Shown: positions 48,169 to 60,970 of the stretch, one piece after another | Position numbering within the stretch: the first letter of the stretch is position 1 | Layout: every line of letters starts with the position of its first letter | Virus record (IMG/VR): IMGVR_UViG_3300021387_000463 | Location: 171,001-235,000 of that record | Strand: one strand, 5' to 3' | From: a virus | Taxonomy: Duplodnaviria; Heunggongvirae; Uroviricota; Caudoviricetes | DNA length: 64,000 nucleotides | Program-made: the position numbers and the translations under genes | The notes under the pieces: generated by a model | Told to the model about the DNA's origin: nothing | The model's database searches: none | What the model saw: the letters and a program-made list of their open reading frames with translations, nothing else

Positions 48169-48280
48169 CGAATGTTAATGAGTGCAAATTTCTACAAAAA
48201 AAATTGGTAGTTTCAAGAAATTTTCGTATCTTTGCATCGTGAAACAATAACAAAGTATTAATTAATAAAAGTAAAGCAAA

Positions 48281-48460
48281 ATGAGTAGCGCACAGAAACG
48301 TCTGAATAAGGCGATTAAGAACAACCGAGTGGTAGCAATCCCCTCGAAGAAGCGTAAGGACTATATGGTTGACGAGAATGGTCAGCAGATGTATGACCCC
48401 AAGACCAATGAGCCAATGGTCAAGGAAACGCAACTTTATAAGATTAAGAAAATGAACTAA
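48281..48460 (+). CDS. Small basic protein (59 aa)
   Basis: MSSAQKRLNKAIKNNR...; own promoter; missed by the ORF track. Confidence 0.75.
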   Translation: MSSAQKRLNKAIKNNRVVAIPSKKRKDYMVDENGQQMYDPKTNEPMVKETQLYKIKKMN

Positions 48461-48655
48461 CGGCTTCCGATTTGGGGCAAAGGTGGTAAGCGATTTGCGC
48501 TGTGTATAGGTCAGGAGATAGTCCGCACCTCCACCACCCCACTGCCGTTTCTTAGGTAGGGATAAAACAAACTATAGTGAATGGGAATGTGCTACGTGCC
48601 GCTTCGTGCTTGCACCTACAAGCCAACCCAATATTGGGGAAACCCTACCTAATTT
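48460..48655 (+). ncRNA. Structured 3' trailer, two closed stem domains
   Basis: acggc/gccgt, tgggg/cccca, ggtgg/ccacc; ttaggtaggg/ccctacctaa. Confidence 0.5.
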
Positions 48656-48729
48656 TCTCAAAGGTTAAACGAAGTTAAAACACCGAAAAAATTTGGTCAG
48701 TTCAAAAAAATTTCGTACCTTTGCATCAG

Positions 48730-49502
48730 AATTAGTAACGAGGGTTGCGATACCCTCACCTAAAAAGAAAGAAATAATGGAAAGACCTCCGCCCAGTTAA
48801 AGGGCTATAGTTATGTCGTTAATGTAAAGGTTAGAATAATAAGGTTGAGGGAGTGACCTTGAAAAACCCTACAAAGAAGTTATGATTAGAGACCGACCCT
48901 AAGTAAAGAATATATTTACCGCCTCTACCCATGTCAATGTGCATGGCTTGGCAAGGTCATTCGACCAAAAACGAAAACTTTAAGCCCCCTAAACGCTTAT
49001 GTTCCGCCCCCAATCCGCACCAATATGATAGAGTGCCGATGTCATTGGGCGAGTTTATCTGCCGATTATACGCTGCCAAACTGCCAAAAGGCTGCGATTC
49101 ACGGCTGTCCGTTAGAAGCGTTAGGGACTTGTTAGAACGATGGAAGTTAAGCCAGTATAAGCCACTGCCCCCCAAAACGTGCGCACATATCTGAGGGGCG
49201 TGCCAAAAGGTTATAAATCGTTCATTTTATTAACATGATGGGGCATTTGGGACGCGACAACTAAGTGATTATAAGCCGAGCGTTGTTCACGCCACCGTCG
49301 CCCTCAAAAGATAAGTTGTGTAATCAACCCTACTCACAGCGACTATGACGTTAATCGTTTGCGGTGTTGCCATAGTATGCTACTAAAGGTGTGAGAAACA
49401 AGTGAGGTGGATTCGATGCGCCCTAAGTGGGGATGCCGAACTGCGCTGCATTAAGTTGCACTCGCCTTTGCCATCATGGACTTTGGACGTGTCCCACCTC
49501 AC
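48730..49502 (+). ncRNA. Candidate large structured ncRNA (~770 nt)
   Basis: Own promoter (48716), no credible long ORF, raised GC, many stems including 49402-49410/49494-49502; ends at a tRNA-like element. Confidence 0.65.
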
Positions 49503-49510
49503 ATTTTTAA

Positions 49511-49582
49511 GCCTCAGCTAGCTCAGTTGGTAGAGCACTACGTTTGACGTAGGGGTCGTTGGTTCGAGTCCAACAAGGGGCA
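49511..49582 (+). tRNA. Degenerate tRNA-like element (short anticodon loop, broken acceptor base)
   Basis: Canonical D arm and T arm; anticodon arm CTACG-TTTGA-CGTAG; only 5 acceptor pairs. Confidence 0.7.
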
Positions 49583-49653
49583 CAAAAATGCTCGTTTTGC
49601 GTTGTGGTAACGCTCTTTGTTTTCCATAATTTGAATTGTTAGGTTTTTAGTTA

Positions 49654-49695
49654 GATGGGGTGATGTCGTGAGACATTTCCCCATTTGTATTTTTT
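49654..49695 (+). terminator. Rho-independent terminator, GTGA loop
   Basis: atggggtgatgtc-gtga-gacatttccccat-ttgtatttttt. Confidence 0.75.
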
Positions 49696-54979: not shown

Positions 54980-55515
54980 CTTAAGAGAAATAAACGTGGG
55001 TCAAAATATCATCAAGGTTCTGCGCAGATTGGTGATGGTGGTGTGCGGTTATGCGGAAACCTAAAACTCCATCTTTCCCACATTTTAAGATATAGGGGGA
55101 GAACATTCAGAGGACTTAGGAAATCGGAGTGCCCCAAAGGAGAAATAACCTCGTCTAAGGGTAAGAGTAGGTCGTTTGACATTCCAATGCGCATTTGGAA
55201 GAAGAGGCTGGCTGTGTAGTCAAGTAAGGAAAGTGCAACTCCGCCACTAATTAGTTTCTCCTTTTAAGATATAAGACAAGATTGAGTTGAAAGATGGGGA
55301 TAGGCATCCATCGCAAAGAGGGAATAAGGTTCGCCTACACAAGAAAACAAACCTCCCATGTCTTGCCTTGTTATAGGGTGATTCCCTTGCAAGAGGTGAT
55401 AGATAAGGTAAACAATGGTGTAAAAACCAGAGTAGTTTCACCCTTCAATTTTTATCATTCAAATCTCCTTTCCGACCTCCAAGTGTTAAAAATTGCACTT
55501 GGGGGTTATTTTTTT
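54980..55515 (+). ncRNA. Candidate structured ncRNA (~530 nt)
   Basis: Own promoter (54967) and terminator (55474-55515); no credible ORF; long-range stems; 12-nt direct repeat. Confidence 0.6.
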
Positions 55516-60559: not shown

Positions 60560-60810
60560 TCAATGAGACGGAAATAAAGTAAGGTTACAAGGTAATCACA
60601 CACCTCCTTTCTGTGATAAAATGGTTTTGCAAATCTAAAGATAACCTTAAAAATTCTCAGCGGAGAATACCTTACTTTCCAAAGATATATTTGAACGATA
60701 CCAGAGGAGAACTATCCGCAAGGGTAGATGTGGACAAATGGGCATTAAGTTCGTGCTTAATGTGTCACTTCGGTGACTTCGGTGATTCAAATTCACCTCG
60801 TTCAACTAAT
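60560..60810 (+). ncRNA. Structured ncRNA with two multi-stem domains and an anti-SD-like loop
   Basis: Own promoter (60547); closing stems 60576-85/60669-78 and 60691-98/60798-805; GCAA and cUUCGg tetraloops. Confidence 0.8.
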
Positions 60811-60890
60811 TAGTAAGTAATTGTAGTAATGGCTTGTACTGCGCTCTGTTCTATAGAGCAACTTGAGCGGTCCGATTCCGTGCTTACTAA
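60811..60890 (+). tRNA. Degenerate tRNA-like element (TCT anticodon, Arg-like)
   Basis: Acceptor TAGTAAG/CTTACTA, anticodon stem GCTCT/AGAGC, T loop TCCGATT, abnormal D arm. Confidence 0.6.
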
Positions 60891-60929
60891 CAATCTAATC
60901 TTTTTAATTGTTACTGATTCTTGTCGCAA

Positions 60930-60970
60930 GGGGTGAAAGCAATTCGGCTTTCACCCCAAAAGTTATTTTT
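60930..60970 (+). terminator. Rho-independent terminator
   Basis: ggggtgaaagc-aattcg-gctttcacccc. Confidence 0.75.

What the first reader, a model, noticed from the sequence alone, without database searches (positions are those of the whole stretch)
48730..49502. ~770-nt promoter-driven structured RNA ending at a tRNA-like element (GOLLD/ROOL-scale)
Seen: a full early promoter (48716) is followed by about 770 nt with no credible gene, visibly higher GC than its flanks and many stems. These include 48740-45/48752-57, 48929-33/48942-46, GGTC-ATTC-GACC, long-range 48987-98/49116-26, 49167-71/49195-99, 49342-47/49371-76 and a 9-bp closing stem 49402-10/49494-502. TGCCAAAAGG recurs at 49082 and 49201. 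Established: the giant ncRNAs GOLLD and ROOL occur in phages beside tRNA genes. Inference: this is a member of those classes or a new class of large phage ncRNA.
Basis: partly seen in the sequence, partly recalled or inferred. Interest (0 to 1): 0.8.

Follow-up and report, generated by a model that had tools for sequence, protein, structure and literature searches.

The report
Modular phage RNA with stalling minigenes
A giant cattle-rumen phage makes a ~960-base early RNA that is not one big folded molecule but a mix-and-match cassette: two tiny conserved genes of the kind that jam ribosomes, swappable folded RNA blocks, a crippled tRNA and an antisense tail, an arrangement I could not find described and whose job is untested.

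Summary
The promoter, stems and tRNA-like element are real, but this is not GOLLD or ROOL and not purely non-coding. The GOLLD model hits elsewhere in this 413-kb Bacteroidota-type phage, not here. About 45 homologous loci in rumen phages show a fixed frame with swappable content. The frame is: early promoter; minigene MERPPP(x)-stop (11 synonymous versus 1 non-synonymous change); minigene M-x-RDRP(x)-stop; variable structured modules; a tRNA-shaped element; a near-invariant tail antisense to a translation start; a covarying terminator at ~49690. Length varies 280-1040 nt, with about 26 architectures among 29 complete copies. Two modules show compensatory pairing. A WGCCRA motif is repeated (genome maximum), and a palindrome sits in a variable-stem loop. 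Gut metatranscriptome contigs from four studies cover this stretch and little of its flanks. Best reading (0.45): a dual-function, processed early RNA whose RxPP and Pro-stop minigenes park ribosomes and whose modules act as decoys or antisense regulators. Function is untested. The scan earlier noted the RDRP minigene (e1-5446621) and anti-start trailers (e1-5419583) on other DNA.

The parts
48692..48723 (+). Bacteroidota sigma-70-type early promoter (TTTG ... TACCTTTG); start of transcription inferred near 48730
   Evidence: same motif before most early genes; RNA contigs begin at 48745 and 48768
48740..48757 (+). 5' hairpin, optional and replaced by other alleles in relatives
   Evidence: z -3.5; presence matrix
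48777..48800 (+). Minigene 1, MERPPPS-stop; RxPP plus PPP stall-type motif; A-rich leader
   Evidence: 44 of 45 loci encode ERPPP, 12 alleles, 11 synonymous vs 1 non-synonymous change; leader score 6.4, above the median of phage starts
48801..48881 (+). A/U-rich variable spacer
   Evidence: z +0.3; not conserved in sequence; ORF1-to-ORF2 distance 78-137 nt
48882..48902 (+). Minigene 2, MIRDRP-stop (family M-x(1-2)-RDRP-x(0-3)-stop)
   Evidence: in-frame stop 0-3 codons after Pro in 42 of 42 loci; 5 of 6 loci fetched by an independent 3' pattern keep RDRP in frame with other N-termini; MRTRDRP-stop in a different phage, L198; leader weak in this copy
48915..48966 (+). Module A, two hairpins; swappable slot
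   Evidence: z -2.5; G-C to A-U change in L178/L180
48987..49126 (+). Module B, multibranch domain carrying four WGCCRA motifs; swappable slot
   Evidence: z -2.0; alleles
49167..49199 (+). Hairpin with palindrome GTGCGCAC (49179-86) in a ~15-nt loop; candidate self-kissing loop
   Evidence: loop conserved while the closing stem is rewritten between alleles
49205..49310 (+). Module C, weakly supported variable domain with two WGCCRA motifs
   Evidence: z 0.0
49315..49395 (+). Module D: small hairpin plus constant stem with an exchangeable inner hairpin; possible CCT/AGG pseudoknot
   Evidence: 14 alleles, 100% paired, 3 pairs with compensatory change, 0/500 shuffles; pseudoknot pairs never vary, so unsupported
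49402..49502 (+). Module E, long domain closed by a 9-bp stem and followed by a U-run
   Evidence: z -3.6; double-sided changes in the closing stem; several unrelated interiors in relatives
49511..49583 (+). Pseudo-tRNA: intact D and T arms, 5-nt anticodon loop, broken acceptor stem; inferred RNase P/Z processing signal or decoy
   Evidence: slot holds intact tRNA-Lys(UUU), an 8-nt-loop form containing TGCCAA, or other tRNA-shaped units in relatives
49599..49613 (+). Short conserved hairpin with variable loop
   Evidence: nine loop alleles, constant stem
49615..49651 (+). U-rich tail that is the reverse complement of an A-rich leader plus ATG GAA AAC AAA G; candidate antisense RNA
   Evidence: identical in 25 of 32 loci; best own-genome partner G000:31336
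49655..49695 (+). Intrinsic terminator, mostly GNRA-capped
   Evidence: 19 alleles, each folding into the same long hairpin from different sequences
48281..48651 (+). Upstream companion unit: 59-aa basic ORF followed by structured modules; one module type moves into the cassette in L192
   Evidence: one RNA contig spans 48248-49472

Best explanation
An early-promoter transcript of ~960 nt (48730 to ~49695) works as a modular, dual-function cargo RNA aimed at the host's translation and RNA-handling machinery. Shown: two minigenes under coding selection; independently folding modules in a fixed order but freely lost or exchanged; a tRNA-shaped slot; a conserved antisense-like tail; a terminator; presence in RNA libraries. 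Inferred step 1: ribosomes start on MERPPP and M..RDRP and pause at RxPP/PPP and Pro-stop. This shields the 5' end and ties up ribosomes, EF-P, tRNA-Pro or release factors. Inferred step 2: RNase P and RNase Z cut at the tRNA-like element, freeing a stable upstream RNA and a ~110-nt terminal small RNA. Inferred step 3: the upstream RNA presents repeated WGCCRA sites and a palindromic loop as a multivalent decoy for a host RNA-binding protein or tRNA-cutting defence nuclease (the motif equals positions 33-38 of a tRNA-Gly(GCC) loop, own knowledge). Inferred step 4: the terminal RNA base-pairs over a translation start, best candidate the phage's own gene heading the helicase-NrdD operon, delaying it.
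For: Coding selection on ORF1 and frame conservation of ORF2. RxPP with x = G, A, S or P is a known arrest motif (PMC12992588) and minimal RxPP suffices (PMC10951233); Pro-Pro-stop and other Pro-stop ends stall termination (PMC3985003). About 26 architectures among 29 copies, 280-1040 nt. Covariation in modules D and E and the terminator. WGCCRA: 7 in 608 nt, the genome maximum; 55 non-redundant sites against 5-14 for nine control motifs. Tail duplex -31.4 kcal/mol with G000:31336 versus mean -12.6 over 348 starts, with five G:U pairs and one mismatch in 29 nt; -23 to -35 with 15 orthologous starts. RNA contigs of four studies sit on this stretch. A second unit in the window has the same order and a 16S-tail copy.
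Against: No experiment shows translation, stalling, processing or any binding partner. Peptides of 6-7 residues are shorter than characterised arrest peptides, and upstream residues modulate RxPP arrest. Arg-Pro-stop is not among the favoured dipeptides listed. The ORF2 leader is weak in this copy and L190 has a different peptide there. WGCCRA sites are only modestly unpaired in predictions (0.4-0.6). The antisense match is suggestive only: 5 of 146 inverted real starts do as well against some other gene, and sRNA and target do not covary. RNA runs were chosen because they hold this stretch, and contigs cannot give strand, ends or level.
Confidence: 0.45

Rival explanations
1. Leader control: the minigenes are sensors. 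Ribosome pausing, set by EF-P, Pro-tRNA or release-factor supply, controls read-through, processing or decay of the downstream RNAs; the ribosomes are not themselves the target.
For: Both ORFs sit at the 5' end ahead of unstructured spacers. ORF1 uses several Pro codons in a row. RxPP peptides are known as regulatory leaders.
Against: No downstream protein gene in the unit. No conserved terminator/antiterminator pair overlaps the ORFs; spacers differ in sequence and length. The RDRP minigene occurs with a different downstream region in L198.
Confidence: 0.2
2. The peptides MERPPP and M..RDRP act in trans, as ligands or decoys of a host protein, and the RNA modules are separate passengers sharing a strong promoter.
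For: Residue identity, not codon, is conserved; 0-3 extra C-terminal residues and varied N-termini are tolerated.
Against: Free 6-9-residue peptides are usually short-lived (own knowledge); the conserved residues are exactly those of cis-acting stall motifs.
Confidence: 0.12
3. One giant ornate RNA of a new class that self-assembles like GOLLD, ROOL or OLE, with variable inserts.
For: Length, tRNA neighbour, expression, and a palindromic loop like the symmetric kissing loops of these RNAs. GOLLD has a variable 5' part.
Against: No universally kept structured core: L147 and L185 retain only the ORFs, one small module, a tRNA-like unit and the tail. No long-range pairing between modules was found. 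Whole-length z is -0.76. No Rfam match.
Confidence: 0.12
4. A recombination hotspot in the plastic early region that collects decaying tRNA genes and unrelated small RNAs with little joint function.
For: Extreme mosaicism, optional modules and broken tRNAs; promoter-flanked cassettes throughout the region.
Against: Fixed order, coding selection, compensatory changes, a shared motif across unrelated alleles, and pseudo-tRNAs that keep D and T arms while only the anticodon and acceptor arms change.
Confidence: 0.11

Closest known systems
GOLLD (RF02032) and ROOL (RF03087) giant phage RNAs (10.1101/2024.12.08.627333)
   Same: Phage-borne, long, beside a tRNA-like gene, expressed; possible palindromic kissing loop.
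   Different: No model match; no conserved core; carries minigenes; modules swap. A GOLLD-like RNA lies elsewhere in this genome.
RAPP/RxPP arrest peptides (ApdA, ApdP, SecM) and Pro-stop leaders such as TnaC (PMC10951233, PMC12992588, PMC3985003)
   Same: R-P-P-P fits RxPP; RDRP-stop ends in Arg-Pro-stop as TnaC does (TnaC sequence from memory).
   Different: Only 6-9 codons, no sensor domain, no downstream protein gene; phage-encoded.
Lambda bar minigenes (cited in PMC8012679)
   Same: Phage minigenes whose translation can trap tRNA through peptidyl-tRNA drop-off.
   Different: bar has two codons and is toxic mainly in Pth-deficient hosts; here longer Pro-rich ORFs sit on a structured cargo RNA.
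CsrB/RsmZ-type protein-sponge RNAs and dual-function RNAs such as RNAIII and SgrS (own knowledge)
   Same: Repeated short motif on one RNA; small ORF plus antisense tail ahead of a terminator.
   Different: Motif is WGCCRA, not GGA; no partner known; content varies slot by slot.
tRNA-punctuated RNAs: leuZ 3'ETS sponge, MALAT1-mascRNA, MHV68 TMERs, T4 species C/D and T5 stable RNAs (own knowledge)
   Same: A tRNA or tRNA-like fold placed to release neighbouring small RNAs.
   Different: Processing here is inferred only; none of these has stall-type minigenes or a swappable module array.

Membership tests
GOLLD | Match to the conserved 3' domain model RF02032 | tested here: not met
   No hit at this locus; positive control at G000:130993-131426, 73.6 bits, E 5.7e-20
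GOLLD | Universally conserved 3' structured region | tested here: not met
   Modules D and E are absent or replaced in many copies
ROOL | Match to RF03087 | tested here: not met
   No hit; note that no positive control rang
ROOL | Intertwined 5' and 3' regions that co-evolve | tested here: not met
   5' and 3' modules reassort independently
GOLLD/ROOL/OLE | Non-coding | tested here: not met
   Two minigenes under coding selection
GOLLD/ROOL/OLE | RNA-only homo-oligomer through kissing loops | not testable with these tools
   A palindromic loop is present but invariant, so no covariation test
RxPP arrest peptide | Conserved R-x-P-P with x = G, A, S or P | tested here: met
   RPPP in 44 of 45 loci; motif definition
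RxPP arrest peptide | Ribosome arrest, resistant to EF-P | not testable with these tools
   Needs toeprinting or ribosome profiling
RxPP arrest peptide | Controls an adjacent downstream protein gene | tested here: not met
   No conserved ORF before the terminator
Functional tRNA | 7-bp acceptor stem and 7-nt anticodon loop | tested here: not met
   Five acceptor pairs broken, 5-nt loop; intact tRNA-Lys in the same slot of L150, L171, L177, L183
tmRNA, RNase P RNA, group I/II intron, riboswitch, ribozyme | Rfam match | tested here: not met
   the phage tmRNA lies at G000:129249-129604
trans-acting antisense sRNA | Unpaired seed before an intrinsic terminator with a specific conserved target | tested here: inconclusive
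   Layout fits; best target G000:31336, empirical p about 0.03-0.1

The most novel reading that the evidence does not exclude
A phage-encoded, recombination-diversified RNA decoy platform: one early transcript that parks ribosomes on minimal arrest minigenes and displays interchangeable RNA baits (tRNA-loop-like WGCCRA repeats, pseudo-tRNAs, an antisense tail) against host translation-sensing defences; an RNA counterpart of the variable anti-defence protein islands of jumbo phages.
Probability: 0.3. Interest if true: 0.85.

Novelty: new variant of a known kind. Interest (0 to 1): 0.68.

Why it matters
Jumbo-phage early regions are read as arrays of small proteins; this locus suggests they also carry slot-based RNA cargo that gene callers and Rfam both miss. 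MERPPP would be among the shortest natural RxPP-type arrest peptides and, to my knowledge, the first in a phage; it is directly testable by toeprinting. The natural allele series (280-1040 nt) is a ready-made deletion panel. Modules D and E are undescribed covarying RNA motifs, and the WGCCRA repeat points to an unknown RNA-binding protein or tRNA-cutting defence in rumen Bacteroidota.

Tried and rejected
Rfam at gathering and E-value thresholds on the window and 20 loci: only tRNA. BLAST against cultured phages: only tRNA matches. A 14-mer scan of viral contigs gave mostly chance hits. The 87-aa ORF and the minus-strand MENKER reading: frames not conserved. rRNA mimicry: matches to Prevotellaceae-family 16S/23S are at most 13 nt and about as frequent antisense as sense. 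Host target of the tail: no match within 3 mismatches over 28 nt in 300 further genomes of that family. Module D model: single copy in this genome, not found in 141 host-family genomes searched, with no positive control there. MERPPP-stop pattern outside this clade: two hits in unrelated contexts, taken as chance. Phage Pth, Pth2 and release factor: not found. No sign of genome-wide stop recoding. Structure of the putative antisense target protein: pLDDT 52, no family match, not pursued. Own-genome targets for other pre-terminator trailers: none beyond the control range. Lack of RNA contigs over the pseudo-tRNA and tail is not taken as evidence. The four-gamete count mixes recombination with repeated loss, and one signature (Lys) misfires on T runs, so only the rough architecture count is used. 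Ten literature searches found no description of this unit.

Full report
Setting. The window is bases 171001-235000 of a 412,753-bp virus record with 36% GC, 59 ARAGORN calls including a tmRNA, and no sign of recoding. Its promoters are of the Bacteroidota type (TTTG ... TAnnTTTG), 33 in the window. Relatives come mostly from metagenome collections, and the RNA holders are animal gut samples. The finding lies in a run of short promoter-led early cassettes.

Observation. The span is 46% GC, but neighbours upstream are as GC-rich and the first 175 nt are 39%. The full 781 nt fold no better than shuffles (z -0.76), whereas single domains do. The 87-codon ORF is broken in all ten homologues that share its start region.

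Not GOLLD or ROOL. Rfam finds only tRNA at this locus, even at E up to 10, and in 20 homologous loci. The GOLLD model does find a full-length, sub-threshold match at G000:130993-131426 in the tRNA cluster (73.6 bits), so it can see a divergent member in this phage. ROOL gave nothing, without a positive control.

Homologues show a cassette. A flanking protein and conserved words fetched about 50 loci. In 29 complete copies the distance from the first ATG to the tail ranges from 280 to 1041 nt, with roughly 26 different module combinations. The window shares module D with L007 but modules A and B with L008. L147 and L185 keep little more than the two ORFs, one small module, a tRNA-like unit and the tail. 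The constant parts are short.

Two minigenes. At 48777 the sequence reads MERPPPS-stop behind an A-rich leader. An unbiased pick of the best-matching 15-mer in 45 loci gives ERPPP in 44 and ERPPS in one; the 12 alleles hold 11 distinct synonymous changes and one non-synonymous change. Two loci extend it to MNSNERPPP in frame. At 48882 the sequence reads MIRDRP-stop. Most loci were fetched with this word, so its identity there is no evidence. The stop codon was not in the pattern, yet it follows within 0-3 codons in all 42. Five of six loci fetched by the independent 3' word read MRQRDRPY, MRTRDRPN or MRSRDRPY in frame; the sixth has another peptide. RxPP with x = G, A, S or P is a known arrest motif (PMC12992588), the minimal motif can suffice but upstream residues modulate it (PMC10951233), and Pro before a stop slows termination (PMC3985003). 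Stalling here is inferred, not shown.

Structured modules. Module D (49315-49395) is paired in every cell across 14 alleles, with compensatory changes at three pairs and 0 of 500 shuffles as good; its inner hairpin is exchangeable and a possible 3-bp pseudoknot never varies. Related sequences can beat such shuffles, so this is support, not proof. Module E keeps its closing stem through double changes while its interior has several unrelated forms. The palindrome GTGCGCAC stays in a ~15-nt loop while the closing stem is rewritten, as a self-kissing loop would; symmetric kissing loops are known in OLE and GOLLD. GCCRA occurs seven times in 608 nt, the highest density in the genome, once on the other strand. 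After collapsing redundant contexts, WGCCRA has 55 sites against 5-14 for control motifs. It equals U33-GCC-R37-A38 of a tRNA-Gly loop (own knowledge), and seven relatives carry TGCCAA in the loop of their pseudo-tRNA. Its predicted context is mixed, so the decoy reading is a hypothesis.

tRNA slot and tail. The window's element keeps D and T arms but has a 5-nt anticodon loop and a broken acceptor stem. Relatives hold an intact tRNA-Lys(UUU), other crippled forms, or two units. After it come a short hairpin, a 37-nt U-rich block identical in 25 of 32 loci, and a terminator rebuilt from many different sequences, which fixes the + strand and a likely end near 49695. The block is the reverse complement of a leader plus ATG GAA AAC AAA G. 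Its best partner among 348 phage starts is G000:31336 (MENKEK..., unknown function, first gene before a DnaB-like helicase and NrdD), -31.4 kcal/mol against a mean of -12.6, with five G:U pairs and one mismatch. Orthologous starts pair at -23 to -35. But 5 of 146 inverted real starts score as well against some other gene, so this target is a lead.

Expression. RNA-library contigs from four studies cover 48248-49472, 48544-49285, 48745-49351 and 48768-49302, with only two short, shallow contigs on 9 kb of flanks. The runs were chosen for holding this stretch, and contigs give no strand, ends or level.

Verdict. A real, conserved and probably expressed unit; a composite rather than one giant RNA; partly coding. 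Most likely a processed dual-function early RNA that engages ribosomes at its 5' end and carries interchangeable decoy and antisense parts (0.45). Rivals: sensor leader (0.2), trans-acting peptides (0.12), new giant ornate RNA (0.12), neutral hotspot (0.11). Each part has a precedent; I found no description of the whole. Interest 0.68.

Noticed in passing
G000:C1:130993-131426 (L199), outside the window: Full-length, sub-threshold GOLLD match (73.6 bits, E 5.7e-20) in the tRNA cluster near the tmRNA: a divergent GOLLD-like RNA in a rumen phage.
   Followed up: no
L187 about 2057-2090 (Prevotellaceae MAG): A 34-nt exact copy of the tail's reverse complement lies in frame inside a 2,300-aa BspA-like leucine-rich-repeat surface gene, where the paralogous repeat has a different patch; too long for chance, origin unexplained.
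   Followed up: partly
window 48460-48651: Companion structured modules after the 59-aa basic ORF; the GGTAGG...CCTACC-closed module has many alleles, is duplicated in L179 and sits inside the cassette in L192.
   Followed up: partly
window 60560-60960: Second ORF-poor unit with a copy of the host 16S 3' tail (ACACCTCCTTT matches three 16S genes), a tRNA-shaped part and a terminator.
   Followed up: partly
window 54980-55515: Third ORF-poor promoter-to-terminator unit ending in an anti-Shine-Dalgarno-like TCTCCTTTCC stretch.
   Followed up: no
G000 217573(+), 147403(+), 238956(-), 80403(-), 224474(+): Other terminators are preceded by inverted leader-plus-ATG sequences; no own-genome target stood out from controls.
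   Followed up: partly
G000:C1:134142-134227 and 123167-123294: ARAGORN calls a CUA-anticodon tRNA and a TCA-anticodon tRNA although coding density shows no genome-wide recoding.
   Followed up: no
G000:C1:31336-32109 (L200:1837-2610): Conserved 257-aa protein without Pfam, PHROG or Atlas match heading the helicase-NrdD operon; 18 relatives in viral contigs.
   Followed up: partly
L182 after minigene 2: Both minigenes are followed by protein-coding-looking sequence instead of RNA modules, so the minigene pair can lead a different cargo.
   Followed up: no
L163: Cassette ends in a different inverted start (ATG AAC GAA GAT), suggesting that the tail's target can be changed.
   Followed up: partly
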